From contig CAZKNG010000004.1 in the NCBI GenBank assembly GCA_964554125.1, positions 672-64,671 on the forward strand: a stretch of DNA of 64,000 nt, in the 5' to 3' direction. Numbering within the stretch: the stretch's first letter is position 1; each line of letters opens with the position of its first letter. The notes below the pieces were generated by a model. That model searched no databases and was not told the DNA's origin. It saw only the letters and a list, made by a program, of their open reading frames with translations. The translations under genes were made by a program, and so were the position numbers. Shown here piece by piece: positions 5,315 through 61,995 of the stretch. The DNA is from an uncultured bacterium. Lineage in GTDB: Bacteria > Krumholzibacteriota > Krumholzibacteriia > Krumholzibacteriales > WJIX01.

Positions 5315-6280
5315 TCAGTCTATCAGCAGCTTACCCTTTTCCATTATCATTTTGCCGTCAAACTCTACGGTGGGCTTCATTACAATCCCGTCGAGGTGGA
5401 TCGGAACATTCACGGTTCCTCCCATCGACATATTGTTTCCGAGAGCTATATGGATTGTTCCCATAACTTTCTCGTCTTCGAGTATCTTGCCTGTTATTTT
5501 CGCCGCATCGTTTGTTCCGATGCCCAGTTCGGCTGTGTTGAATGCCATTGGCCCGACAGCTTCCAGTTTTTCTTTCAGCAGATCCGCCTCGGGGCCGCCT
5601 GTAATTTCCACGGCAAAGCCGTCTTTAACGGTAATTGTTATAGGAGTCTTCCCGGTAAGGTCACCGATTCCGGCCATAGATCCATCGACTATAAATACTC
5701 CGTTGGAACTGTTTTCAACCGGCATTAGATAGGCTTCGCCCGAGGGAAGATTTCCGAATCCACCCTTTTCATGTATAAGTCCGGTTGAGGCTATACCCTC
5801 TATACCATCTACAGGTATTATTATATCTGTACCCGACTCTGTTGTTACATGAGCGGATTTTGCATCTGTCAGCATCTTAGTTATTTTTTTTGTTCTGTCA
5901 GCTATAGCGTAGTAATCGGCTTTAAGGCAGCGAACCATTGTATCCTTTGTAATTCCGGGCATTGTAGCTACTCTGGCTCCGGCCGAGCAAGCCTCTCTTC
6001 TTGCCGTCGTGTGAGTAAGTGATTTTGATGTCGGGATTATAACAGCTTCGCTGGCTGCCATCGCGCGCGAGACAGATTCGGGAGGTTCCTCGCCGTTTCT
6101 ACTCAAAGGCATTATCTCCATTATGACAGATTCTGCTCCGAGTGAGCGGCCGGCTTCGAATAGAGCTTGGCCTATTGTTTTAAGTTCAGAGTCTGTTACT
6201 ACGAGAAATGATTCATCTTTTTTTACTTTCAGGCAGTCTTTTACGGCTGTTACCGCTGATTCATAAAGTTCTTTATCCAT
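5315..6280 (-). CDS. Aminopeptidase, M29/PepS-like family
   Basis: 321 aa. Resembles the short thermophilic-type aminopeptidases (GGTVNVPIHLDG..., HIALGNN...). Confidence 0.45.
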   Translation of the reverse strand: MDKELYESAVTAVKDCLKVKKDESFLVVTDSELKTIGQALFEAGRSLGAESVIMEIMPLSRNGEEPPESVSRAMAASEAVIIPTSKSLTHTTARREACSAGARVATMPGITKDTMVRCLKADYYAIADRTKKITKMLTDAKSAHVTTESGTDIIIPVDGIEGIASTGLIHEKGGFGNLPSGEAYLMPVENSSNGVFIVDGSMAGIGDLTGKTPITITVKDGFAVEITGGPEADLLKEKLEAVGPMAFNTAELGIGTNDAAKITGKILEDEKVMGTIHIALGNNMSMGGTVNVPIHLDGIVMKPTVEFDGKMIMEKGKLLID

Positions 6281-6544: not shown

Positions 6545-6573
6545 TTGCGGAATTAAAACTAAAAGGGTACAAT
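6545..6573 (+). promoter_or_regulatory. Putative sigma70 promoter for the PurF-like gene
   Basis: TTGCGG-17nt-TACAAT. A second TATAAT lies at 6597-6602. GGAGGT ribosome-binding site at 6614-6619. Confidence 0.35.
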
Positions 6574-6626
6574 GCTTTTTTTCGCGAGTGGTGATATATA
6601 ATTTGATTCGCCTCGGAGGTTAAGAA

Positions 6627-8018
6627 ATGAGTGGTCTTTTCGGTGTAGTTTCCAGCGATAGTTGTTCTGAATATCTGCTTTATGGAACGGATTATCATTC
6701 TCATCTCGGCAATGAATTCGGAGGAGCGGCGGTTTTAGGGGAAACTTTTCACCGGCAAATCCACGATATAAGTGACAGCCAGTTCAAATCGAAATTCGAT
6801 AAGGATATTATGGAAATGAGGGGGAAGATGGGAATAGGGGTCGTGAGCGCTGTTGATGAGCAACCTGTATATATGAATTCCAGGTTTGGTCCTTTCTGTC
6901 TCATAATGGATGGAATTATCAATAATTCCCGGGAGCTTGCCTCGGCGCTTCTTGACCGTGGAATCAGTTTCAGTGAAGTAGGGAAGGGTTATGTGAATCT
7001 CGCGGAGCTTACTGCTAAATTGATAACGCAGGGTGACAGCATTGTCAGCGGTATCGAAAAGATGTTCGATCAGATAAACGGTTCCTGTTCACTTCTCCTG
7101 CTGCATAGAGACGGAATCTATGCCGCCAGAGACAGGCACGGGCATTCCTCCCTGGCCGTTGGGAGAAACGGCGATTCTTGGGCGCTGGCTTCTGAAACAT
7201 CCTCCTTTCCCAACCTCAATTTTGAAGGTGAGAAGTTCTTAAGGCCCGGTGAGATCGTTTTGATAAATGAAAAAGGGCTTACGCGGAAAAAGAAGGGTTC
7301 CGACAAAAACCAGATTTGCGCCTTCTTGTGGGTATATACGGGGTTTCCGACTAGCAGGTATGAAGGTATAAATGTTGAGACAGTCAGAGAAAAATGCGGC
7401 AGATTTCTGGCAAAGAGGGATCGTGATATCGATGTGGATGTTGTCGCGGGTGTTCCTGATTCGGGGATTGGCCACGCGGTAGGATACGCTATTGAATCGA
7501 ATAAGCCCTACAGAAGGCCTCTGGTAAAATATACTCCCGGATACGGGCGGAGTTATATTCCCAGTTCACAGAATATGCGGGATCATATCGCCAGAATGAA
7601 ATTGATTCCCAATGAATCTATAATTAGAGGAAACAGAATTGTTATTTGTGAAGATTCGATAGTGAGAGGAACTCAGCTGAAAAATTATACTATCAGGAAG
7701 CTGTGGTCCGCCGGAGCTGAGGAGATCCACGTCAGAGTTGCCTGTCCTCCTCTTATCTTTCCGTGTAAATTCAATTTTTCAACCCGGAGTATCGGCGAAC
7801 TCGCGGCCCGAAGGGCTATAAGAGCAATTGAAGGAGCTGATGTCGGGGATGTCTCAGAATATGTGGATCACACAACAGAGAAGTACGCGGAGATGATAGA
7901 ATGGATAAGAAAGGATCTGAAAGTGACGACTCTGAGATATCAGACGATCGATGATATGATAGAATCGACAGGTATGCCGAGGGGAAAATTGTGTCTGAAC
8001 TGCTGGAACGGTGAATGA
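6627..8018 (+). CDS. PurF-like class-II amidotransferase / PRTase paralog lacking the N-terminal catalytic Cys (Ser2)
   Basis: N-terminus MSGLFGV compared with canonical MCGI. PRTase motif (VICEDSIVRGTQL) and a PurF-like C-terminal region (CPPLIFPCKF). The canonical purF is at 49147. Confidence 0.6.
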   Translation: MSGLFGVVSSDSCSEYLLYGTDYHSHLGNEFGGAAVLGETFHRQIHDISDSQFKSKFDKDIMEMRGKMGIGVVSAVDEQPVYMNSRFGPFCLIMDGIINNSRELASALLDRGISFSEVGKGYVNLAELTAKLITQGDSIVSGIEKMFDQINGSCSLLLLHRDGIYAARDRHGHSSLAVGRNGDSWALASETSSFPNLNFEGEKFLRPGEIVLINEKGLTRKKKGSDKNQICAFLWVYTGFPTSRYEGINVETVREKCGRFLAKRDRDIDVDVVAGVPDSGIGHAVGYAIESNKPYRRPLVKYTPGYGRSYIPSSQNMRDHIARMKLIPNESIIRGNRIVICEDSIVRGTQLKNYTIRKLWSAGAEEIHVRVACPPLIFPCKFNFSTRSIGELAARRAIRAIEGADVGDVSEYVDHTTEKYAEMIEWIRKDLKVTTLRYQTIDDMIESTGMPRGKLCLNCWNGE

Positions 8019-8078: not shown

Positions 8079-8864
8079 TTAAACTTCTTCATCATACTCG
8101 GTGAGTATCCCGGCAACGGCATTTGCCTGATCATCCGCCCCGGCGACAAGTATTATCCTTTTTATCGATTCAGTTTCCTGAGATTTTATCGTTTCAAGCA
8201 ATGCTATCACCGCTCGGTGATTATTTGTTTCTTCTAAATTCTTCCATATGACCGGAATCGTTACGGTAGCAGAATCGAGTTTGTCAGCAAGTTCGAGAAC
8301 CTTCGAAAAAGCCGATTTAATCGATTCATCAGAATGATAACCGGCAGAGTCTTCAGGTAGGACTGCATGGATTATGTAGCGGCATGTCAAATTTCCGGAG
8401 GTTGTAGAGATCGGCTTTTCAATCGTTATCGGAGATTTTGAAGCTGCTTCTTTTTCTATATCATTTCCGCCTTTATTTTTAATGGCGGCCCCCGGGCCTT
8501 CAGACATAGTTCCGTCCGGTGAGGCTGGATTTATAATGGCGTCTGAGAAGAAATCTGTAATTTCTCCCACCCGCACGGAAACGTCGATCTTTCCTATACT
8601 GGACATATAGACATTTTTCTCCATGGCTATTCCGGCCAGTATTACATCCGGCTTTTTTCTGAAATCGCCGATGAGCCTCTTGCCTTCTCCGGCTACAAAA
8701 CCCGCCGTATTGAAAACTTCTTCAGGATCGGCCCTGCCATCCTGAAAGAGATCGAGTTTTTTCCGCAGAGGATTTATCAACTCACCGCATTTGGATATTT
8801 TCAGGTTTCTGATAAACTCTTTTTTGCGAATTTCCCGTTCATCATCGGTGTCATCAAATAACAT
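8079..8864 (-). CDS. Macro-domain (ADP-ribose / Appr-1''-p processing) protein with ~90 aa N-terminal extension
   Basis: Macro-domain Gly-rich block (DAIINPASPDG...GPGAAIKNKGG). Confidence 0.5.
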   Translation of the reverse strand: MLFDDTDDEREIRKKEFIRNLKISKCGELINPLRKKLDLFQDGRADPEEVFNTAGFVAGEGKRLIGDFRKKPDVILAGIAMEKNVYMSSIGKIDVSVRVGEITDFFSDAIINPASPDGTMSEGPGAAIKNKGGNDIEKEAASKSPITIEKPISTTSGNLTCRYIIHAVLPEDSAGYHSDESIKSAFSKVLELADKLDSATVTIPVIWKNLEETNNHRAVIALLETIKSQETESIKRIILVAGADDQANAVAGILTEYDEEV

Positions 8865-10797: not shown

Positions 10798-12519
10798 ATG
10801 TTACCTCCTCTTTTACCTTCGGTAGTGAGACATTTTGTTTACCCTTTTTATAGAGGGTATAGAAAAGACAGGGTCCTTTCTATTCTGAGCGATTTGGAGG
10901 ATAATCAGTGGCTCGGAAAAGAACAGATAGAAGAGATACAATGGAGGAAGCTCAAGAAGCTGTTGAGTTACGTTTCCATCCATGTTCCCTATTACAGGGA
11001 TCTCTTCAGTAACAGGGGAATAGAACCCGATGAGATAGAAAGCCCCGCTGATTTTAAGAATATACCGTATCTGACAAGAAATGTTATTACAAAGAGCAGC
11101 CGTGATCTTATTACAGGAGATCCGCTGATGAAGGGATATGCTTCGAGTACCGGCGGGTCTAACGGTGACCCTCTCTATTTCTACTGTGATCTTGCGGCCG
11201 GTCCCGTCCGCCGTGCCAACACAATCAGGCAGTTCCGCTATGCCGGTATTGATATTGGCGACAGGCAGCTGCGGCTTATGGGAGATCAGCTGGATAGAAC
11301 ATGGAAGGAAAACGCCGCGGCGAAGGTAAAAGATTACTTCAATAATATTAAATTCCTGTCATCGTTTGATATGTCAGACGAAGCGATGAAAGAGTATATC
11401 TATGTTGAACACTTTTTTAAACCCTCTGTTATTGTAGCCTACCCTTCAGCTCTTGCTCTTCTGGCTCATTTTTGTAAGAGGAGGGCTTTGAAGGTTTTTA
11501 AACCGAAAGCCGTTGTTACAAGCGGGGAAATGCTGTACCCGGAGCAGAGGAAGATAATCGAAGAGGTCTTTTCCGCCCCTGTTTTCAACAGATACGGAAC
11601 CAGTCAGTTTTCCAATGTAGCCAGCGAATGTAAACAGCATAAGGGGTTGCATGTAGCGAGTGATCTCTTCTTCGTCGAAGTAATTAACAATAGCGGGAAA
11701 CCGGCTGAAGCGGGCGAAAAGGGGGAGCTGGTCATTACAGACCTGTCTAACTTTTACATGCCCTTTATAAGATATAGAACCGGAGATTATGCGGTTCCGG
11801 CAGGAAGAATTTGTGACTGCGGAATAGGTCTGCCTCTCCTTGAAAGGATTGAAGGACGCAGCTTAAATACTATCAGAACTGCTGAAGGCAAATCTGTCGG
11901 GGGTGCTTTCTGGACTAGACTTTCGAGAACAGTGCCGGGGATAAAGAGATTTCAAATTGAGCAGAAGGGTCTAAACAGCATCAATTACAGAATTGTTACC
12001 GGTCCCGGGTGGAAAGTTGAATTTAAAGATATCCTTGATAGAAAGATCAAGTCATACTGCGGAGATAATTTAAACATTACCTTTCTTGAAGTTGATGACA
12101 TTCCTCTTACACCCTCGGGGAAATCCAGGTTTATTATTCCTGATACCGAAGAAAAACTTGTCATTAAATCCAAGATACACAAGGCAAATATCACCTCGGC
12201 AGAACCTGATATGAATGACTGTCTGTGTATAGACGAAAAACTCATGGAGCTTGCCGATATTTCCGAATATGAAAAGATCCTCATCGTTGATGCCACAAAT
12301 GGAGTCCGTCTCGAAACATTCGCCGTGAAGGCCCCCAGAGATAAAGGTGATATTAAAGCCTGCGGAGCGGTCGCGGGAAAAGTTAACCCGGGGGATGAAA
12401 TAGGTGTAATGGCGTTTACATGGGCGAAGGAAAACGAGGTTGATTTCAGTAATATTCTCGTTGATAAGAGGAACAGGTTCTTACGTTATCTTACAGAATT
12501 TCCAGGGCATAAAATATGA
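10798..12519 (+). CDS. PaaK/CapK-type adenylate-forming ligase fused to a C-terminal degenerate PanD-like (aspartate decarboxylase fold) domain
   Basis: ANL/PaaK motifs SSTGGSNGDP, GELVITDL and YRTGD. The C-terminal ~115 aa align along their whole length with the PanD ORF downstream: KSKIHKA, ILIVDATNGVRLETF, GAVAG, GVMAFTW. Confidence 0.65.
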   Translation: MLPPLLPSVVRHFVYPFYRGYRKDRVLSILSDLEDNQWLGKEQIEEIQWRKLKKLLSYVSIHVPYYRDLFSNRGIEPDEIESPADFKNIPYLTRNVITKSSRDLITGDPLMKGYASSTGGSNGDPLYFYCDLAAGPVRRANTIRQFRYAGIDIGDRQLRLMGDQLDRTWKENAAAKVKDYFNNIKFLSSFDMSDEAMKEYIYVEHFFKPSVIVAYPSALALLAHFCKRRALKVFKPKAVVTSGEMLYPEQRKIIEEVFSAPVFNRYGTSQFSNVASECKQHKGLHVASDLFFVEVINNSGKPAEAGEKGELVITDLSNFYMPFIRYRTGDYAVPAGRICDCGIGLPLLERIEGRSLNTIRTAEGKSVGGAFWTRLSRTVPGIKRFQIEQKGLNSINYRIVTGPGWKVEFKDILDRKIKSYCGDNLNITFLEVDDIPLTPSGKSRFIIPDTEEKLVIKSKIHKANITSAEPDMNDCLCIDEKLMELADISEYEKILIVDATNGVRLETFAVKAPRDKGDIKACGAVAGKVNPGDEIGVMAFTWAKENEVDFSNILVDKRNRFLRYLTEFPGHKI

Positions 12520-12686: not shown

Positions 12687-13046
12687 ATGAAACGTATGTT
12701 TTTAAAATCTATGATTCTGAAAGCGAAGGTCACTCAAGCCGATCTTCGTTATGTGGGAAGCATTACGATCGATGAAGATCTTGTTGAGAAAGCGAATCTG
12801 AGTGAAAATGAGAATGTATTGATCGTTGACAAAACAAATGGAAACAGACTCCAGACCTATATAATAATCGGTGAGAGAGGCTCTGGAGTAATTTGCATCA
12901 ACGGTGCCGCGGCTCACCTTGTAGATGAAGGTGACATTGTTGATATCATGGCATTTTCCTGGACCACGGGTGAAGCTCAATCACTCTTTATAAAATTGGA
13001 TGAGAATAATCATTTTTCCAGGTATGTCAAAACGGGTGAGCGCTGA
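12687..13046 (+). CDS. panD: Aspartate 1-decarboxylase proenzyme PanD
   Basis: Canonical PanD: Lys9, His11, the Gly-Ser self-cleavage site (YVGSITID), Arg54, Thr57, Tyr58 (RLQTY), and GAAAHL. Confidence 0.85.
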
Positions 13047-14225: not shown

Positions 14226-16064
14226 CTATATCATCCCTGAATCGGTGTAGTTTTCTATTGAGCTTGAAGAGCTGCTCAGGTCTTCGATGATCGATGTGAG
14301 TGTAAACAGGTGATCAAAGCCGAACTTGCCCAGTTTCCCGGTGTTTTCTGAAATTCCGCCGAGCGACAGATATTCGCCGATTGAATGGCAGTTTTGAATC
14401 TGGCGGTTGAAGCATTCTACTATCTTTGAATTCTTCCCATACGGTCCTATTACATCGTTGGTCTGTTTTACCTTATTTCTTAACAACTTTTTCAGAGACG
14501 CGGGGAGGATGTAATACAATTCTCTCGCGTAAAGATATAACAGATATTTTTTAGAAGATATATCGAACCCCCAGTTGGCGTTACGGACAGCGGATGCTTC
14601 AGGTGAAAGTTTGAGCAGGAACTCCCGGTAGAGTTTGTATTTTGCTTTATGCTTATCCGGGCAATTCATGACAAAGTTAAAGAAGTGTATGGAATTAAAA
14701 GGCGAGACAGTCCAGAAGTAGAATCTGTTGCGGTCTTCTCCCTCAGATGTCCACTTCAGATTACGCTGATTGATTATAAAATGAACGTATTTTCCGTCCA
14801 TCCCTCTCTCGGGATACGCCGCGAGTTCTTCTCTTATTTCAGCTATAATATCATTTTCCCTGATCCCCGTGACAGCGGCTGTAATATCAAGTGGAACGAC
14901 ATGGTTCGTCTTGATAATAAACCGGGTCAATTCGTGTGTGTCTTTGAGTTTCTTAAAAGGTCTGGAATCGGGGATTATTAATCCCCCGCCCTCTCCGGTG
15001 AAATATGTAATTCTGTCTCCCCATTCGGTCCGTATCGCGTTGAAATAGGGTATGGAAAAACTCATTCCCAGGAAATTCATTCCATTCTTCATTCTGAGAA
15101 GTTTTAGAACCTCCTCTCCCGTAGCCTGTCCGATTTCAAAGAGTTTCCAGTCGAAATTCAGGACTTCGGATAATTCCCTCGCGATATCAATATCCTTCGC
15201 CGCTGTTTTATAGTAGTCGAGGAAGGTGGCGCCCGAGAAATCGATATCGATCCCTGTAAGGGCGGAGGCGACTGCTCTGGAATCCAGCCCGCCGCTCTGG
15301 GTGATTATATTCTTATCTACGGGGTCAGCCATTTTACCGCACATATCTGAGAAGATGGCAACCATCCGGTCAGCGGATTCACCTACACTGAGCCCGCGAT
15401 TGTTTTTCGAATCGTAATTGAAATTATAAAGTGTTTCTATTGAAACTCTATCCGATTTTCCATCTGATCTGATCACAGAAGCGGGCGGGAGGCGGAAGGT
15501 GTTTTTTAGCAGCGTTCTTCTTCCAAGGGGGAATCCCAGAAGCAGAAATTGAGAGGATCCGGTTCTATCGAAACCTGTTCCACCGGAGAAATGATGGATG
15601 AATCTGAGTTCTCTTGAGACTGTTAGTGTTCCCGCGTCTTCATTCCAGTATAGCGGAAGGCGTCCCAGAGCGTCATTTAGTATCCACAAAGAAGATGATT
15701 TCCGATGAAGTATGAATATTATAAAATCTCCATTTGTATCCATAAGCCACCGAGTGATCTTTTCTCTTGAGCTGCCGGAATTTTCTATAAACAGTTTGAC
15801 GAGTTTTCTGATCTCAGAAGAGATCTCCGAATGAGTTTTCCCGTATATCTTTCCCTCAAGGCAGATAAAGTATTCGCCATTCTCTATGACCGTCACCGGA
15901 TATTTCGCGTGACTCGTGCAGCATAGGAAATATCTGTCATCTTCGAGCAGTATATTCCGTTCGATCCATTTTTCGTGTATAACCGAATCCAGAGCTTTCA
16001 AGCTCTGCGCCTTTCTTTTTTTCAGCCCTCCGACGGGCTTATAGATAAAACTTATTCCAGGCAT
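14226..16064 (-). CDS. Asparagine-synthetase-like amidotransferase lacking catalytic Cys (Pro2); PP-loop intact
   Basis: N-terminus MPGISFIY compared with canonical MCGI. PP-loop SGGLDS present. 612 aa with an AsnB-type two-domain layout. Confidence 0.65.
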   Translation of the reverse strand: MPGISFIYKPVGGLKKRKAQSLKALDSVIHEKWIERNILLEDDRYFLCCTSHAKYPVTVIENGEYFICLEGKIYGKTHSEISSEIRKLVKLFIENSGSSREKITRWLMDTNGDFIIFILHRKSSSLWILNDALGRLPLYWNEDAGTLTVSRELRFIHHFSGGTGFDRTGSSQFLLLGFPLGRRTLLKNTFRLPPASVIRSDGKSDRVSIETLYNFNYDSKNNRGLSVGESADRMVAIFSDMCGKMADPVDKNIITQSGGLDSRAVASALTGIDIDFSGATFLDYYKTAAKDIDIARELSEVLNFDWKLFEIGQATGEEVLKLLRMKNGMNFLGMSFSIPYFNAIRTEWGDRITYFTGEGGGLIIPDSRPFKKLKDTHELTRFIIKTNHVVPLDITAAVTGIRENDIIAEIREELAAYPERGMDGKYVHFIINQRNLKWTSEGEDRNRFYFWTVSPFNSIHFFNFVMNCPDKHKAKYKLYREFLLKLSPEASAVRNANWGFDISSKKYLLYLYARELYYILPASLKKLLRNKVKQTNDVIGPYGKNSKIVECFNRQIQNCHSIGEYLSLGGISENTGKLGKFGFDHLFTLTSIIEDLSSSSSSIENYTDSGMI

Positions 16065-16282: not shown

Positions 16283-16912
16283 TCATTTCTGTTCTCTGAG
16301 TCTATCTATTTCACTTATCTGTTGGCCTGTGAGTCTGTCAGCGCCTCCAAGAAGCTCTGTGAAAAGGGTCGTTCGCGCCGCCGCCTCGAGCACTTCGATT
16401 TTGCTGAAGGCCTCTTCAAGAGTCAGCCCAAGACAGACAGGTCCGTGATTCCTCATCATTATTACATCACTGCCTGCCGCGGCTTCGGAGACAGCGGAGG
16501 CAAGTTTTTCTGACCCCATAAGAGCATAAGGAACATTGGCTATCTGTCCCAGTATAAATCGTGATTCACCTGTGAAATCTGTCTTTATCTCTATGTTGGA
16601 TGCCGACAGGATGGTTGCCCACGGGGGATGAGCGTGAACAACGGCTCTGATATCATCGCGGCGATTATAGATTTTAAGGTGAAGGGAGGTTTCCATGCTG
16701 GGTGTAAGGTCACCTGAAAGATTTTTACCGTCTGTTGAAACTTCACAAATATTTTCGGCCGTGAGTCTTCCCTTGTCGAGCCCCGATGGAGTAACGAGGA
16801 TCGAGTTCGCGCCGTTTCTCAGGCTGATATTGCCTCCGCGCGCCGTTGTAAGTTCTCGCGCGTAGAGACGGTTTACAAAGTAGGCTATCTCTTCTTTTTT
16901 TCCTGATTCCAT
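16283..16912 (-). CDS. Class II aldolase/adducin-family protein (fuculose-P aldolase / MtnB-like)
   Basis: NISLR, VTPSG and HAHPPWATILS metal-binding His motifs. Confidence 0.7.
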   Translation of the reverse strand: MESGKKEEIAYFVNRLYARELTTARGGNISLRNGANSILVTPSGLDKGRLTAENICEVSTDGKNLSGDLTPSMETSLHLKIYNRRDDIRAVVHAHPPWATILSASNIEIKTDFTGESRFILGQIANVPYALMGSEKLASAVSEAAAGSDVIMMRNHGPVCLGLTLEEAFSKIEVLEAAARTTLFTELLGGADRLTGQQISEIDRLREQK

Positions 16913-48514: not shown

Positions 48515-49150
48515 TTGAAAGCCCGCGCTGAGTTATGGGTGAAATTGAAAGTTACAGATCTGGTGGTTGAGACGGCATGGTTAACCCTGACCGAAAAACT
48601 GGATTTTGATTATCTCAGGGGTTTGACGAAATACTCCTGCTGGTTTATGAAGTGTGAGGGTAATAGCCTCGAGGAGACAGCTGATCAATTGAACAGGGTG
48701 ATAACTCTTGACAGTACATTCACGAACCAGAATAAACATAAATATTCATTGATAATTGAAGGGGAAGAAAATAAAACGGGTGAGGGCAAGAGTTCTTCTA
48801 TAGCGAAGAGGGGTGACCTTAATATCGACGAGGATTTTACCCTGCGCTCAGAAGCGTCTTCCGGGAAGCTCTACGCCTGTGACTGTTTCGTAACTGAATT
48901 GGAATCTGATAAAAATATGAATTATACCGACCGAATCAGCGGCAGGCCCGGTGACATATCTATTTCAGAAATGAGAGCGGGGCTTGTCTGGAGATTGATC
49001 ATTGAAGCCGACAGCAGAAATGACGCTGAGAAAAAAGCTGAAGAGATCTCGGTTACGCGTTCGCGCCGCGGAGGGCTTCTTCTGAATCCTCATTATCAGG
49101 ATTTTGAAATCATTTCCACAGTAAGCCTTTCAGAAAGAGGTGCTAATTGA
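48515..49150 (+). CDS. purS: PurS-like protein, tandem (two PurS-like halves)
   Basis: Both halves end in a PurS-like block (LLNPHYQDFEI at the C-terminus). Position between purQ and purF supports the call. Confidence 0.45.
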   Translation: MKARAELWVKLKVTDLVVETAWLTLTEKLDFDYLRGLTKYSCWFMKCEGNSLEETADQLNRVITLDSTFTNQNKHKYSLIIEGEENKTGEGKSSSIAKRGDLNIDEDFTLRSEASSGKLYACDCFVTELESDKNMNYTDRISGRPGDISISEMRAGLVWRLIIEADSRNDAEKKAEEISVTRSRRGGLLLNPHYQDFEIISTVSLSERGAN

Positions 49151-50514
49151 AAGAAGAATGCGCGGTGTTTGGAATATTCAGAAACGATGAGGCCGCGAAA
49201 CTGACCTACCTGGGACTTTATTCACTCCAGCACAGGGGACAGGAAAGTACCGGAATTATTACTTCAGACGGCAGAGAAATGTTCGAACACAAATCGATGG
49301 GGCTTGTCTCTAAAGCTTTCACCGGTGAAATATTAGACGGCTTAAAAGGAAATCTCGCCATAGGTCATAACAGGTATTCGACCGCTGGCGGGACAACCCT
49401 GGCTAACGCTCAGCCCTTTATGGTTAATTACAAGGGGGGACGGATAGCGATAGCTCACAACGGGAATATAGTTAACGCGGCAAAGCTGAGAAAGGAAATG
49501 GAAAATAACGGCTCTATATTCAGAAGCACTATGGACAGCGAGATAATTTTGCACCTGATCGCGAAAAGCAAAAAAAGGACTATGGATAAAATACTGCCCG
49601 ATGCCTTCAGGCACGTCGAGGGTGCTTATTCAATAGTTTTTCTCCTCAAGGATAGGATAATCGCGGTTAGAGATCCGCACGGGTTCAGACCTCTTTGCCT
49701 GGGAAAGCTCGGCAACTCCTATATTTTTGCTTCCGAAAGCTGTGCTTTCGATCTGATCGGGGCGGAATATATTCGTGAAATAGCCCCGGGTGAAATGTGC
49801 GTCGCGAGTGAAGACGGGATCAAGTCTGTTAATTTCGCAGAACCACCTCCCACGCTCTCTAAATGCATCTTTGAATTTATTTATTTCTCAAGACCCGACA
49901 GCAAAGTCTTCGGTGAAAATGTCGACAAGGTCAGGAGGAAACTTGGACGCAAGTTGAGTGAGGAGGCGCCGGTCGACGCCGATATAGTAATTTCCGTTCC
50001 CGATTCGAGTAATACGATAGCTCTCGGCTACGCTAATGGATCAGGTATTCCTTACGAGATAGGGTTGATCCGCAATCACTATGTGGGACGTACGTTTATT
50101 CAGCCGGAACAGAGTTCGAGGGATTGGGACGTGCGAATCAAGTTCAACCCGGTCAGCGGTGTTCTGAAGGATAAAAGGGTTATTGTAGTGGATGATTCTA
50201 TCGTTCGAGGATCTACAATGAAGAAGCTCGTAAATATGCTGCGCCAGGCCGGAGCGGGCGAAATTCACTTGAGGGTTGGCTCTCCCATGATAAACAATTC
50301 GTGCTATTTTGGTATCGATACACCAACGAGAAAAGAGCTGATTGCTTCTTCCTATTCGTCAGAGCAGATCAGGTCATTTCTCGACGCTGACAGCCTTGAA
50401 TATATTTCCCTTGAAGGATTGAAGAGTTGTGTAAAAAATCCGGAGGATTACTGCGTGGCCTGTTTCAATGGTGATTATCCAATTGACTGTGGTGATTGTC
50501 TCGAGGGTGCTTAA
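49147..50514 (+). CDS. purF: Amidophosphoribosyltransferase PurF (canonical, with propeptide and catalytic Cys)
   Basis: MKEECAVFGIF with Cys following the propeptide. HRGQES motif. PRTase motif VVDDSIVRG. Confidence 0.85.
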   Translation: MKEECAVFGIFRNDEAAKLTYLGLYSLQHRGQESTGIITSDGREMFEHKSMGLVSKAFTGEILDGLKGNLAIGHNRYSTAGGTTLANAQPFMVNYKGGRIAIAHNGNIVNAAKLRKEMENNGSIFRSTMDSEIILHLIAKSKKRTMDKILPDAFRHVEGAYSIVFLLKDRIIAVRDPHGFRPLCLGKLGNSYIFASESCAFDLIGAEYIREIAPGEMCVASEDGIKSVNFAEPPPTLSKCIFEFIYFSRPDSKVFGENVDKVRRKLGRKLSEEAPVDADIVISVPDSSNTIALGYANGSGIPYEIGLIRNHYVGRTFIQPEQSSRDWDVRIKFNPVSGVLKDKRVIVVDDSIVRGSTMKKLVNMLRQAGAGEIHLRVGSPMINNSCYFGIDTPTRKELIASSYSSEQIRSFLDADSLEYISLEGLKSCVKNPEDYCVACFNGDYPIDCGDCLEGA

Positions 50515-60342: not shown

Positions 60343-61995
60343 GTGAACGGAAAGGTAAAATATATTTTTATTACGGGTGGTGTGGTATCTTCTCTCGGAA
60401 AGGGAATAGCGGCGTCCTCACTCGGACTGCTGCTTAAGCAGCGGGGTTTGAATGTTGTCCTCCAGAAATTTGATCCCTATCTGAACGTTGATCCCGGGAC
60501 GATGAGTCCCTTCCAGCATGGTGAGGTTTTTGTGACAGACGACGGGGCTGAAACCGATCTAGACCTGGGTCATTATGAACGTTTCACAGATAAGAATCTG
60601 AGTCAGAAATCGAATGTTACAACAGGCCAGGTATACGAAGCTGTTATAAACCGAGAACGTGAGGGAGCATACCTGGGGGGGACGGTTCAGGTTATTCCGC
60701 ATATTACAGATGAAATAAAGAAGAGAATAATGAGAGCGGCGGGTGAAGATGACGATGTTGATATTGTAATCACGGAGATTGGCGGAACAACGGGAGATAT
60801 CGAAGGTTTGCCTTTTCTTGAAGCGATAAGGCAGCTTCGTTTTGAACTTGGAAAAGAGAATGTTTTATATGTTCATCTTACCCTCGTGCCATATATTAAA
60901 GCCGCTCATGAGATTAAGACGAAACCTACTCAGCACAGCGTCAAGGGGTTGAGGGAGATCGGGATACAACCTGATATTCTGCTCTGCAGATCTGAAAGGC
61001 CGCTTGAAGACGGGATAAGAGATAAGATATCCCTCTTCTGCAATGTTGATAAAGAGGCTGTTATTGAAGCCCTTGATGCTGATTCAATATATGAAGTTCC
61101 TCTGGGGCTGAGCAGCAAAGGACTTGATGATATTGTAATAAGAAAACTTGCCATAAAAAGCTCAGAGCCCGATCTTACCCTATGGAAAGAAATGATAACC
61201 AAAATCAAATCTCCCGGAGAGAATGTACAGATCGCCGTATGCGGTAAGTACATCCATCTTGTCGACGCCTACAAGAGTATTATAGAATCTTTCACTCACG
61301 CGGGAGCAGCTAACGATGTCAGGGTTAATATTAAATGGGTAAACGCGGAGAGAGTTGAGGAAGACGGGCCTGAGGGGTGTTTTGAAGATGTAGACGGGGT
61401 TTTGATCCCGGGCGGTTTTGGCGAAAGAGGGATAGAAGGTAAGATAAACGCGGTTAAATACGCCAGAGAAAATGGTATTCCCCTGCTCGGTATCTGTCTC
61501 GGTCTTCAATGCGCCGTTATCGAGTTTGCCCGCAATGTCTGCGGACTTGAAGCGGGAAGTTCCGAATTTGACCCCGATGTGAAAGATCCGGTCATTGATC
61601 TTATGCTTGAACAGCGCAGTAAATCGAAGATGGGCGGTACTATGCGGCTTGGTTCCTATCCATGTAATATAAAAGAGGGTTCTCTTGCCGAGCAGCTTTA
61701 CGGTTCCCTTCAGATCAATGAAAGGCACCGTCACCGCTGGGAGGTTAACAATGAATACCGCCGGGTGCTTGGCGAGAACGGTCTCGTGTTTTCAGGGCTT
61801 TCTCCGGATGGCAACCTTGTCGAAATAGTTGAACTCCCCTCACATCCTTTCTTTATTGCCGCTCAGTTTCATCCGGAGTTTAAATCCCGTCCACAGAAAG
61901 CCCATCCGCTTTTCAAGGGATTGGTCAAGGCGGCCGCGGAATATTCTGTTTCGGCATCTGAGGGATCGAATAATAAAGTAAAGCAGGATGGATGA
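60343..61995 (+). CDS. pyrG: CTP synthase
   Basis: [17 protein letters not shown]-terminus. Glutamine amidotransferase Cys (GICLGLQ). Confidence 0.9.

What the first reader, a model, noticed from the sequence alone, without database searches (positions are those of the whole stretch)
6627..8018. Second, Cys-less PurF-type PRTase paralog while canonical purF is present 41 kb away
- **What the sequence shows.**
  - The protein has the full PurF two-domain layout: an Ntn-glutaminase-like N-domain plus a PRPP-binding PRTase domain with the VICEDSIVRGTQL loop and a CPPLIFPCKF region.
  - It starts MSGLFGV, so it lacks both the propeptide and the nucleophilic Cys. The HRGQ(E/D)S block is altered to HLGNEF.
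  - The genuine purF (MKEECAVFGIF..HRGQES) lies inside the purBLQSF cluster at 49147.
- **Inference.** A Ser at the Ntn position is not known to support glutaminase activity in class-II GATases. This paralog probably couples PRPP to ammonia or another amine, or has a regulatory PRPP-binding role.
- **Context.** Its placement beside a macro-domain (ADP-ribose-phosphate) protein and near a class II sugar-phosphate aldolase hints at an unusual phosphoribosyl / ADP-ribosyl chemistry theme.
Basis: partly seen in the sequence, partly recalled or inferred. Interest (0 to 1): 0.55.

Follow-up and report, generated by a model that had tools for sequence, protein, structure and literature searches.

The report
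Cysteine-less PurF paralog, probably ammonia-dependent
This gene is a real, intact second copy of the first purine-synthesis enzyme that has lost its glutamine-splitting site, and it belongs to a large uncharacterised family that most likely makes phosphoribosylamine directly from ammonia.

Summary
ORF 6627-8018 (+) encodes a 463-aa two-domain PurF homolog that starts MSGLFGV, and an in-frame TAA two codons upstream rules out a longer N-terminus. A canonical purF lies at 49147-50514.

The missing cysteine is a family trait, not a sequencing error.
- More than 8000 homologs exist in Krumholzibacteriota, Omnitrophota, Planctomycetes MAGs and Thermoplasmatota and other archaeal MAGs, at 56-95% identity.
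- About 94% carry Ser at the Cys1 position. All 56 Ser codons examined in the fetched loci and the window are AGY.
- The glutamine site is dismantled: Arg26 is Leu, the Arg73/Tyr74/Thr76 loop is deleted, and Asn101 and the Asp127 region are altered.
- The PRPP loop, the catalytic flexible loop and all four [4Fe-4S] cysteines are invariant.

Context from orthologs points to purine synthesis and to ammonia.
- Orthologs lie among purine-synthesis genes in 29 of 60 loci, and in 15 they are the only PurF there.
- A Gly-type relative is the only PurF in a near-complete pur operon (purB not in the cluster) of gut Oscillospiraceae.
- In five Omnitrophota loci a gene for PyrJ (DUF1846), a demonstrated ammonia-only CTP synthase, lies just upstream.

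Best reading: an ammonia-dependent phosphoribosylamine synthase (confidence 0.6). This is inferred, not demonstrated. The macro-domain/aldolase "ADP-ribosyl theme" is not supported.

The parts
6627..8018 (+). Complete gene for the Cys-less (Ser-type) PurF paralog, 463 aa
   Evidence: ORF list. Pfam GATase_7 plus Pribosyltran. TIGR01134 scores 193 bits, below the cutoff of 350. More than 8000 homologs.
6615..6623 (+). GGAGG ribosome-binding site (6615-6619) and in-frame TAA stop (6621-6623) just upstream of the ATG. Together they fix the N-terminus as M-S-G.
   Evidence: Read directly from the sequence.
6630..6632 (+). AGT codon for Ser2, at the position of the catalytic Cys1 of canonical PurF
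   Evidence: Alignments. All 56 Ser codons at this position in the loci and the window are AGY.
6627..7301 (+). Remodelled Ntn-type N-domain (aa 1-225).
- Glutamine-site residues are lost: HRGQE becomes HLGNE, the R-Y-S-T loop is deleted, and HNG becomes MDG.
- A new invariant polar set is present: D22 Y23 H24 S25 H26 R43 H46 K56 S74 N124 E127.
   Evidence: Pairwise identity in the N-domain is 0.60, against 0.59 in canonical PurFs.
7302..7781 (+). Type-I PRTase domain (aa 226-385).
- PPi loop VPDSG (7452-7466)
- Flexible catalytic loop KYTPGYGRSYIPSSQNMRDHIARMKL (7527-7604)
- PRPP loop IVICEDSIVRGTQL (7638-7679)
   Evidence: Alignment to 1AO0. Invariant columns in A1. Coordinates.
7317..8003 (+). 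Four invariant cysteines at the positions of the B. subtilis PurF [4Fe-4S] ligands.
- C231 (7317-7319) and C380 (7764-7766), matched to Cys236 and Cys382 by the residue-level alignment
- C456 (7992-7994) and C459 (8001-8003), assigned to Cys437 and Cys440 from the conserved C-terminal CxxC motif
   Evidence: The identities of the ligands in the B. subtilis enzyme are taken from established knowledge of 1GPH/1AO0.
7782..8015 (+). C-terminal region (aa 386-463). It contains a family-specific insertion of about 24 residues (AARRAIRAIEGADVGDVSEYVDHTTEKY) that canonical PurF lacks.
   Evidence: group alignment; pairwise gap.
49147..50514 (+). Canonical glutamine-dependent purF (propeptide MKEE, then Cys) at the end of the purB-purL-purQ cluster. 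It is the paralogous partner, not part of the same transcription unit.
   Evidence: TIGR01134 scores 525 bits against a cutoff of 350.

Best explanation
The gene encodes a glutamine-independent isozyme of PurF. It probably takes free ammonia and PRPP and makes 5-phosphoribosylamine plus PPi, the first step of purine (and thiamine) synthesis.

**Shown**
- The Ntn glutaminase site is dismantled: Cys1 is Ser, Arg26 is Leu, the Arg73/Tyr74/Thr76 loop is deleted, and the oxyanion Asn and the Asp127 region are changed.
- The PRTase active site (PPi loop, flexible loop, PRPP loop) and the four [4Fe-4S] cysteines are invariant.

**Inferred**
- The nucleophile is NH3. It may enter directly, or through the retained and still strongly conserved N-domain.
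- The enzyme is an oxygen-sensitive Fe-S protein suited to anoxic, ammonium-rich habitats.
- In this Krumholzibacteriota genome it works beside the canonical glutamine-dependent PurF, as AsnA does beside AsnB or PyrJ beside PyrG.
For: 1. **Family trait, not an error.** Of the 120 best homologs, 113 have Ser at the Cys position. In the loci and the window the count is 56 Ser, 3 Gly and 1 Thr, and every Ser codon is AGY.
2. **Residue-level loss of the glutamine site with full retention of PRTase motifs and Fe-S cysteines**.
3. **Orthologs (56-71% identity) lie among pur genes.** This holds in 29 of 60 loci, as purB-purL-LOG-purQ-[Ser-PurF]-purM-...-purD-purE. Eleven loci have a canonical Cys-PurF in tandem. 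In 15 loci purM follows directly and there is no Cys-PurF in the roughly 20-kb locus.
4. **A Gly-type relative is the only PurF in a near-complete pur operon (purB is not in it).** P0306 (42% identity; Dysosmobacter, Lawsonibacter, Ruminococcaceae; its 90%-identity cluster has 3295 members) sits in purE-purC-X-purM-purN-IMP cyclohydrolase-purH-purD-purL. No nucleophile at position 1 is therefore needed for the purine role.
5. **Adjacency to an ammonia-only enzyme.** In five Omnitrophota loci a DUF1846 gene lies on the same strand just upstream of the Ser-PurF gene: adjacent in four, with carB2 in between in L007. DUF1846 is PyrJ, shown biochemically to be an ammonia-only CTP synthase (bioRxiv 10.1101/2024.09.24.614635). 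L010 reads carA-carB1-carB2-purF(Cys)-pyrJ-SerPurF-pyrG; L056 reads the same from carB1 (its start is cut by the contig end). Glutamine-dependent genes and demonstrated or putative ammonia-dependent partners are interleaved.
6. **Precedent in E. coli PurF.** With Cys1 replaced by Ser or Ala it loses glutamine-dependent activity but keeps NH3-dependent activity (Mei & Zalkin 1989, as summarised in PMC3261824).
7. **Fold.** The AF2 model is confident (pLDDT 85.7) and its best structural match is B. subtilis PurF.
Against: - No biochemical data exist for any member of this clade in the library searched.
- In this window the gene is monocistronic, with no purine, nitrogen or pyrJ neighbours. The functional inference therefore rests on orthologs.
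- I could not check whole genomes, so 'only PurF in the operon' is not 'only PurF in the genome'.
- The N-domain is as conserved as a catalytic one (0.60 against 0.59 pairwise identity) and has an invariant polar set. A simple 'ammonia diffuses into the PRTase site' model does not explain this.
- Ser at position 2 is about 94% conserved, which hints at a role.
- The pyrJ/carB2 association comes from five Omnitrophota MAGs, three of them closely related.
- The AF2 model superposes on 1AO0 with a global TM-score of only 0.47.
Confidence: 0.6

Rival explanations
1. It is a PRPP-dependent transferase whose remodelled N-domain handles a different nitrogen donor or a different amine. The N-terminal Ser (exposed after Met removal) might act as an Ntn nucleophile on a non-glutamine amide. 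The product would be PRA or another N-ribosyl phosphate.
For: - The N-domain is under purifying selection as strong as in catalytic PurFs.
- It has a new invariant polar constellation: D22 Y23 H24 S25 H26 R43 H46 K56 S74 N124 E127.
- Ser is kept in about 94% of orthologs, and only with AGY codons.
- Ser and Thr are legitimate Ntn nucleophiles in other families (established knowledge).
Against: - Sister subfamilies in the same clade have Gly, Ala or Asn at this position. The Gly-type is the only PurF in a near-complete pur operon (purB is not in it).
- The oxyanion Asn is variable (D/N/A/S/T/V).
- The flexible loop that closes canonical PurF around a small nucleophile is invariant.
- Operon position argues for PRA as the product.
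Confidence: 0.17
2. It is a non-catalytic or regulatory paralog (pseudoenzyme). It would bind PRPP or nucleotides and form hetero-oligomers with canonical PurF to modulate it.
For: - This genome keeps both forms.
- A Cys-PurF lies next to or near the Ser-PurF in 15 loci (11 in pur operons, 4 elsewhere).
- Crenarchaeal PurF/PurF' pairs are also adjacent (PMC3261824).
- The SRPD segment is replaced by GFP(A/T), and Arg307 by Thr. From memory of the 1AO0 work, these residues contribute to the allosteric nucleotide site of B. subtilis PurF.
Against: - All PRTase catalytic motifs are invariant across Ser and Gly types.
- In 15 Omnitrophota loci and in the Oscillospiraceae operon there is no canonical partner in the pur cluster.
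- A pseudoenzyme would not be expected to occupy the purF slot alone.
Confidence: 0.12
3. It is an artefact: a sequencing error (TGT read as AGT) or a decaying pseudogene of purF.
For: AGT differs from TGT by one base.
Against: - The ORF is intact, with a ribosome-binding site.
- Thousands of homologs at 56-95% identity have the same N-terminus.
- Many coordinated changes elsewhere in the N-domain are shared by the whole clade.
- Purifying selection is comparable with canonical PurF.
Confidence: 0.01

Closest known systems
Bacillus subtilis-type glutamine PRPP amidotransferase PurF (PDB 1AO0/1GPH; EC 2.4.2.14)
   Same: - Two-domain Ntn plus type-I PRTase architecture.
- Best sequence match (E 2e-48) and best fold match (E 3e-35).
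- The PRPP loop, PPi loop, flexible loop and all four [4Fe-4S] cysteine positions are conserved.
   Different: - Only about 27% identical.
- No propeptide and no Cys1 (Ser instead).
- Arg26 is Leu, the Arg-Tyr-x-Thr glutamine loop is deleted, the oxyanion Asn is Asp, and the Asp127 region carries a 5-residue insertion.
- SRPD becomes GFPT.
- There is an extra insertion of about 24 residues near the C-terminus.
- It fails the TIGR01134 cutoff (193 against 350 bits).
Archaeal PurF' / Mlab_0150 (Cys-less PurF paralogs noted by Brown et al. 2011, PMC3261824)
   Same: - PurF paralogs lacking Cys1 (Ala/Val in Crenarchaeota, Ser in Mlab_0150).
- They are encoded next to purF and other pur genes.
- Their function is untested and was hypothesised to be ammonia-dependent.
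   Different: - Whether those proteins belong to the same clade was not testable here, because no sequences were available.
- The present clade is mostly bacterial plus Thermoplasmatota and other archaeal MAGs.
- It is defined by the (Y)GTDYHSHLG motif and the loop deletion.
E. coli PurF Cys1 substitution mutants (Mei & Zalkin 1989)
   Same: They are a laboratory equivalent: a Ser or Ala substitution abolishes glutamine use but leaves NH3-dependent PRA synthesis (as summarised in PMC3261824).
   Different: Those are single-residue mutants of an otherwise intact glutaminase domain. Here the whole glutamine pocket has been rebuilt and is conserved in its new form.
PyrJ (DUF1846, Spd_0310), the ammonia-only CTP synthase paired with glutamine-dependent PyrG
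   Same: - Same logic: an ammonia-using isozyme exists beside a glutamine amidotransferase in nucleotide synthesis.
- pyrJ lies just upstream of the Ser-PurF gene in five Omnitrophota loci, adjacent in four.
   Different: - Unrelated fold and reaction.
- PyrJ has been characterised biochemically, whereas the Ser-PurF has not.
- No DUF1846 gene is present in this 64-kb window.

Membership tests
Canonical glutamine PRPP amidotransferase PurF (TIGR01134 equivalog, EC 2.4.2.14) | N-terminal nucleophile Cys, exposed after removal of Met or a propeptide | tested here: not met
   Ser2 (AGT) aligns with Cys1. A TAA two codons upstream excludes an alternative start.
Canonical glutamine PRPP amidotransferase PurF (TIGR01134 equivalog, EC 2.4.2.14) | Glutamine-binding and oxyanion residues (Arg26, Arg73/Tyr74/Thr76 loop, Asn101-Gly102, Asp127) | tested here: not met
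   HRG becomes HLG, the RYST loop is deleted (8-residue gap), NG becomes DG, and the D127 region carries an insertion. The same changes are seen in 58 Ser-type sequences compared with 16 Cys-type sequences.
Canonical glutamine PRPP amidotransferase PurF (TIGR01134 equivalog, EC 2.4.2.14) | Profile score above the curated cutoff | tested here: not met
   193 bits against a cutoff of 350. The window's canonical purF scores 525.
Canonical glutamine PRPP amidotransferase PurF (TIGR01134 equivalog, EC 2.4.2.14) | Type-I PRTase catalytic motifs (PPi loop, flexible loop with Lys/Arg, acidic pair plus SIVRGT PRPP loop) | tested here: met
   VPDSG, KYTPGYGRSY..Q..R..A.MKL and EDSIVRGTQ are invariant in alignment A1.
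Canonical glutamine PRPP amidotransferase PurF (TIGR01134 equivalog, EC 2.4.2.14) | Catalyses PRA formation from PRPP | not testable with these tools
   There is only contextual support, from pur-operon placement of orthologs and relatives.
Fe-S subclass of PurF (B. subtilis type) | Four Cys ligands of the [4Fe-4S] cluster (Cys236, 382, 437, 440 in 1AO0) | tested here: met
   C231, C380, C456 and C459 are invariant in the family. C231 and C380 align residue for residue with Cys236 and Cys382. C456 and C459 are assigned from the conserved C-terminal CxxC.
Cys-less 'HSHLG' PurF-like clade (Ser/Thr/Gly types; unnamed, annotated as amidophosphoribosyltransferase) | No Cys1, the (Y)GTDYHSHLG motif, the RYST-loop deletion, and clustering apart from canonical PurF | tested here: met
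   Motifs are present. The neighbour-joining tree places the window protein with Thermoplasmata and Omnitrophota Ser-types inside one coherent Cys-less branch, and canonical PurFs are monophyletic elsewhere.
Cys-less 'HSHLG' PurF-like clade (Ser/Thr/Gly types; unnamed, annotated as amidophosphoribosyltransferase) | Association with purine or nucleotide biosynthesis genes | tested here: inconclusive
   Met in 29 of 60 ortholog loci, in the Oscillospiraceae operon and in five pyrJ loci. Not met in this window, where the neighbours are an M29 peptidase-like gene and a macro-domain gene on the opposite strand.
Crenarchaeal PurF' (Brown et al. 2011) | Same orthologous group as the published Ala/Val-type PurF' proteins | not tested
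   No PurF' sequences were available. Ala/Val-type clusters exist among distant hits, but they carried no taxon names.
Ser/Thr Ntn hydrolases | Strictly conserved N-terminal Ser/Thr nucleophile with an oxyanion hole | tested here: inconclusive
   Ser is about 94% conserved among close orthologs. Gly, Asn and Ala occur in the clade, and the oxyanion Asn position is variable.

The most novel reading that the evidence does not exclude
The rebuilt N-domain is not a relic. It would be a dedicated ammonium-capture or gating module that feeds NH3 through the old PurF channel, using the invariant Asp22-Tyr23-His24-Ser25-His26, Arg43, His46 and Lys56 in place of the glutamine pocket. On this reading the Cys-less PurF, a second CarB (carB2) and PyrJ form a glutamine-independent nucleotide-synthesis set. 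That set would be widespread in anaerobes, and the Cys-less form would be the sole PurF in lineages such as gut Oscillospiraceae and many Omnitrophota.
Probability: 0.3. Interest if true: 0.75.

Novelty: new variant of a known kind. Interest (0 to 1): 0.6.

Why it matters
PurF is the textbook example of a glutamine amidotransferase with an ammonia channel. Databases annotate every homolog as glutamine-dependent amidophosphoribosyltransferase.

This gene belongs to a very large, strongly conserved clade, with thousands of sequences in sediment and groundwater phyla, archaea and human-gut Oscillospiraceae. The clade cannot hydrolyse glutamine in the known way, yet it occupies the purF slot of pur operons.

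If it is ammonia-dependent, several things follow.
- The nitrogen entry point of purine synthesis in many anaerobes is free ammonia, not glutamine.
- That changes metabolic reconstructions, ATP and nitrogen budgets, and annotation rules.
- With PyrJ and a second CarB, it would point to a coordinated ammonia-using set of nucleotide-synthesis isozymes.
- The conserved, rebuilt N-domain gives a tractable system for asking what an ex-glutaminase domain does.

Tried and rejected
- **RNA elements.** An Rfam scan of the whole window, and a permissive scan of the 346-nt upstream region, found no riboswitch or leader.
- **Promoter and terminator scan.** It gave nothing above the shuffled expectation near the gene. 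A TTGCGG-17-TACAAT element at 6545-6573 is only a visual candidate.
- **Upstream alignment.** Aligning the upstream region with the closest relative (L071) was uninformative, because the sequences are too similar.
- **Macro-domain / aldolase / 'ADP-ribose' link.** Rejected:
  - the macro gene is convergent and missing in L071;
  - the aldolase is 8 kb away;
  - neither recurs across loci.
- **NAD-salvage idea.** Isochorismatase plus QRPTase_N lie upstream in L002/L003. This did not recur in other loci.
- **Literature.** Searches for PurF-like, PurF paralog, ammonia-dependent amidophosphoribosyltransferase and purF2 found only Brown et al. 2011.
- **Link to crenarchaeal PurF'.** Cluster look-ups of Ala/Val-type distant relatives returned no taxon names.
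- **Thermoplasmatota neighbours.** The conserved ones (a winged-helix regulator, unknown proteins, PEPCK) gave no functional clue.
Full report

Yes. The ORF 6627..8018 (+) encodes 463 aa starting MSGLFGVVSSDS. A GGAGG ribosome-binding site lies at 6615-6619, and an in-frame TAA at 6621-6623 means no longer N-terminus can supply a cysteine. Pfam finds a class-II amidotransferase domain (GATase_7, E 1.4e-12) and a PRTase domain.

The NCBIfam purF equivalog model TIGR01134 aligns over almost the full length but scores 193 bits against a cutoff of 350.

The canonical purF lies at 49147..50514 (MKEE-C-AVFGIF...HRGQES), behind purB, purL and purQ. It scores 525 bits on the same model. The two paralogs are only 27% identical.

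The best database match is a Candidatus Krumholzibacteriota MAG protein (95% identity) in a syntenic contig, so the window is from that phylum.

**2. Not an error, but a family**

The listed 120 are 66-95% identical and come from Krumholzibacteriota, Latescibacteria, Omnitrophota, Bacteroidales, Firmicutes and other MAGs.
- Of these, 113 of 120 have Ser at the position of Cys1. Asn and Gly are rare alternatives.
- Sixty loci from GTDB species representatives are 56-71% identical for the great majority, with two distant outliers at 42-46%. They come from Omnitrophota, Planctomycetes MAGs and archaeal MAGs labelled Thermoplasmatota, Methanobacteriota or Methanosarcinales.
- At this position the loci and the window have 56 Ser, 3 Gly and 1 Thr.
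- All 56 Ser codons are AGC or AGT, one step from the TGY cysteine codon.

A full phmmer pass over 1.84 billion cluster representatives shows the wider picture. The nearest 50%-identity clusters, down to about 36% identity, are almost all Cys-less (MSG, MTG, MGG or MAG) and share a (Y)GTDYHSHLG motif.

In a rough neighbour-joining tree these form one coherent branch, and canonical PurFs are monophyletic elsewhere.

**3. What is lost and what is kept**

I used an alignment to B. subtilis PurF (1AO0) and a column-by-column comparison of 58 Ser-type with 16 Cys-type PurFs, most of them from the same loci.

*Lost:*
- Cys1 is Ser.
- HRGQE is HLG(T/N)E, with Leu invariant.
- The GH(V/N)RYSTxG loop (Arg73/Tyr74/Thr76, which holds glutamine in class-II amidotransferases) is replaced by GVIS with an 8-residue deletion.
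- The oxyanion Asn of HNG is variable (Asp here).
- The Asp127 segment carries a 5-residue insertion.

*Kept and invariant across Ser and Gly types:*
- the PPi loop P277-D-S-G;
- the flexible catalytic loop K301...R308...Q315..R318...K325;
- the PRPP loop D343-S-I-V-R-G-T;
- C231, C380, C456 and C459, at the positions of the four [4Fe-4S] ligands of the B. subtilis enzyme (C231 and C380 by direct alignment to Cys236 and Cys382; C456 and C459 from the conserved C-terminal CxxC motif).

The N-domain is not decaying. Mean pairwise identity is 0.60 among Ser-types and 0.59 among canonical PurFs. It also has its own invariant polar set (D22, Y23, H24, S25, H26, R43, H46, K56, S74, N124, E127), while position 2 itself is not invariant.

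An AF2 model is confident (pLDDT 85.7, pTM 0.79). Its best structural match is B. subtilis PurF (E 3e-35), but the global TM-score is only 0.47. I could not resolve this discrepancy.

**4. Context elsewhere**

I called ORFs in 65 loci, clustered them and annotated the recurrent clusters.

*Omnitrophota and Planctomycete MAGs.* In 29 of the 60 loci where the N-terminus is readable (59 fetched loci plus the window), the Ser-PurF lies among pur genes. The usual order is purB-purL-LOG-purQ-[Ser-PurF]-purM-SPFH-purD-purE.
- In 11 of these a canonical Cys-PurF follows in tandem.
- In 15, purM follows directly and no Cys-PurF is present in the locus.

*Gut Oscillospiraceae.* The Gly-type relative P0306 is 42% identical. 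Its 90%-identity cluster has 3295 members, and its relatives are named Dysosmobacter, Lawsonibacter and Ruminococcaceae. It is the only PurF-like gene in a near-complete operon, purE-purC-X-purM-purN-IMP cyclohydrolase-purH-purD-purL, which lacks only purB.

*PyrJ and a second CarB.* In five Omnitrophota loci a DUF1846 gene (Pfam E about 1e-170) lies just upstream on the same strand. It is adjacent in four, and carB2 lies between the two genes in L007.
- DUF1846 (Spd_0310, PyrJ) has been shown with purified protein to make CTP from UTP with ammonia but not glutamine (bioRxiv 10.1101/2024.09.24.614635).
- L010 reads carA-carB1-carB2-purF(Cys)-pyrJ-SerPurF-pyrG-GAF/ANTAR. L056 reads the same from carB1, whose start is cut by the contig end.
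- carB2 forms its own orthogroup: 75-93% identity among four loci, and about 53% to the carA-linked carB1 of L010.

Glutamine-dependent enzymes and demonstrated or putative ammonia-dependent partners are thus interleaved. This is the strongest hint about the nitrogen donor. It comes from only five MAGs, three of them closely related.

**5. Context in this window**

The gene is monocistronic.
- An M29/NicX-like gene (5315-6280) is divergent, and a macro-domain gene (8079-8864) is convergent.
- The macro gene is absent from the closest relative, where a PAP2 gene follows directly (L071). Another Krumholzibacteriota genome has neither neighbour (L073).
- The class II aldolase is at 16283-16912 on the other strand.
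- No Rfam family matches anywhere in the window.
- The window has pyrG (60358-61935) but no DUF1846.

The 'ADP-ribosyl theme' is therefore not supported.

**6. Most likely mechanism**

*Shown:* the protein cannot bind or attack glutamine as class-II amidotransferases do, and it keeps a complete PurF PRTase site and the Fe-S ligands.

*Established knowledge:* E. coli PurF with Cys1 replaced by Ser or Ala loses glutamine-dependent activity but retains NH3-dependent PRA synthesis (Mei & Zalkin 1989, as summarised in PMC3261824).

*Inferred:* the enzyme condenses NH3 with PRPP to give phosphoribosylamine. In this genome it serves as an ammonia-using isozyme beside the glutamine-dependent PurF, saving the ATP that glutamine synthetase would spend when ammonium is plentiful. 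The Fe-S cluster would make it oxygen-sensitive, which fits these anaerobic lineages.

*Not explained:*
- why the N-domain and Ser2 are so well conserved;
- whether NH3 enters through the old channel.

I put this reading at 0.6.

**7. Rivals**

| Rival | Confidence | Main points |
|---|---|---|
| Different donor or amine, handled by the rebuilt N-domain, possibly with Ser1 as an Ntn nucleophile | 0.17 | Favoured by N-domain conservation. Disfavoured by Gly/Ala/Asn variants in the clade, including the operon-resident Gly-type, and by a variable oxyanion residue. |
| Regulatory or heteromeric pseudoenzyme partner of PurF | 0.12 | Favoured by frequent tandem pairs and by changes at segments that, from my memory of the 1AO0 work, contribute to the allosteric nucleotide site. 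Disfavoured by invariant catalytic motifs and by operons without a canonical partner. |
| Artefact or pseudogene | 0.01 | Excluded. |

**8. Comparison with what is known**

- The protein works like PurF but is not a member of the PurF equivalog. It fails three defining features: the nucleophile, the glutamine pocket and the model cutoff.
- The only literature precedent found is Brown et al. 2011 (PMC3261824). They described crenarchaeal PurF' (Ala/Val) and Mlab_0150 (Ser) and proposed, without testing, an ammonia-dependent role.
- I could not test whether those proteins belong to this clade.
- No paper in the searchable library characterises any member.

**9. Verdict**

This is a real feature, correctly spotted. 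It is a new variant of a known kind: an uncharacterised, very widespread, glutaminase-dead PurF lineage.

Interest is moderate to high (0.6). The idea of Cys-less PurF paralogs is not new. What is new and directly testable is the combination of:
- the scale of the clade;
- its sole occupancy of pur operons in Omnitrophota and gut Oscillospiraceae;
- its conserved rebuilt N-domain;
- its linkage to the ammonia-only CTP synthase PyrJ and a second CarB.

**10. Limits**

- Function is inferred from orthologs, not from this locus.
- The absence of a second PurF at whole-genome level could not be checked.
- The tree is a distance tree without support values.

Noticed in passing
L010:3-13780 and L056:1-10908 (also L012, L007, L008): Omnitrophota clusters read carA-carB1-carB2-purF(Cys)-pyrJ(DUF1846)-SerPurF-pyrG-GAF/ANTAR regulator. 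carB2 is a separate orthogroup (75-93% identity among loci, about 53% to the carA-linked carB1 of L010). This suggests a third glutamine/ammonia isozyme pair, for carbamoyl phosphate.
   Followed up: partly
window 14226-16064 (-): A 612-aa asparagine-synthase-like protein (GATase_7) starts MPGISF, so it is another class-II amidotransferase homolog without the N-terminal Cys. The gene is absent from the closest relative genome (L071).
   Followed up: partly
window 10798-12519 (+) and 12687-13046 (+): A CapK-like adenylate-forming enzyme is fused to a C-terminal aspartate-decarboxylase (PanD) domain. A standalone PanD gene follows it directly.
   Followed up: no
window 48515-49150 (+): A 211-aa ORF sits between purQ and canonical purF, where purS would be expected. 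It has no Pfam hit.
   Followed up: partly
L014-L062 (about 25 Omnitrophota/Planctomycete loci), e.g. L028 gene 6: The pur operons carry a LOG/SLOG-family gene (PF03641, 'possible lysine decarboxylase', a nucleotide phosphoribohydrolase family) between purL and purQ. An SPFH/band-7 gene follows purM.
   Followed up: partly
proteins P0166, P0181, P0192, P0228, P0230, P0249 (Cys, no RYST loop); P0209, P0213, P0223, P0226, P0257 (Ala/Val types): A wider radiation of PurF-like proteins exists. Some keep Cys1 and HRG but lack the Arg73/Tyr74 loop. Others have Ala or Val at position 1 with HLG, and could be the published archaeal PurF' type. None carried taxon names.
   Followed up: partly
[not shown]
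   Followed up: partly
window 8079-8864 (-); L001:10087-10872; L071:11392-11821: The 261-aa macro-domain gene downstream of the paralog is present in this window and in a 70%-identity relative genome (L001). It is missing from the 95%-identity relative (L071), so it varies in presence between related genomes.
   Followed up: partly
L002/L003:6133-7894: In one lineage an isochorismatase-family gene and a QRPTase_N-domain gene (both NAD-salvage-like) lie directly upstream of the Ser-PurF on the same strand. This was not seen in other loci.
   Followed up: no
window 6630-6632 and position 2 of the Ser-PurF gene in the fetched loci (L001-L064): Every Ser codon at the former Cys position is AGY (38 AGC, 18 AGT) and never TCN. 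The rare Gly (GGN) and Thr (ACC) variants are one step away, consistent with a single TGY to AGY origin.
   Followed up: yes
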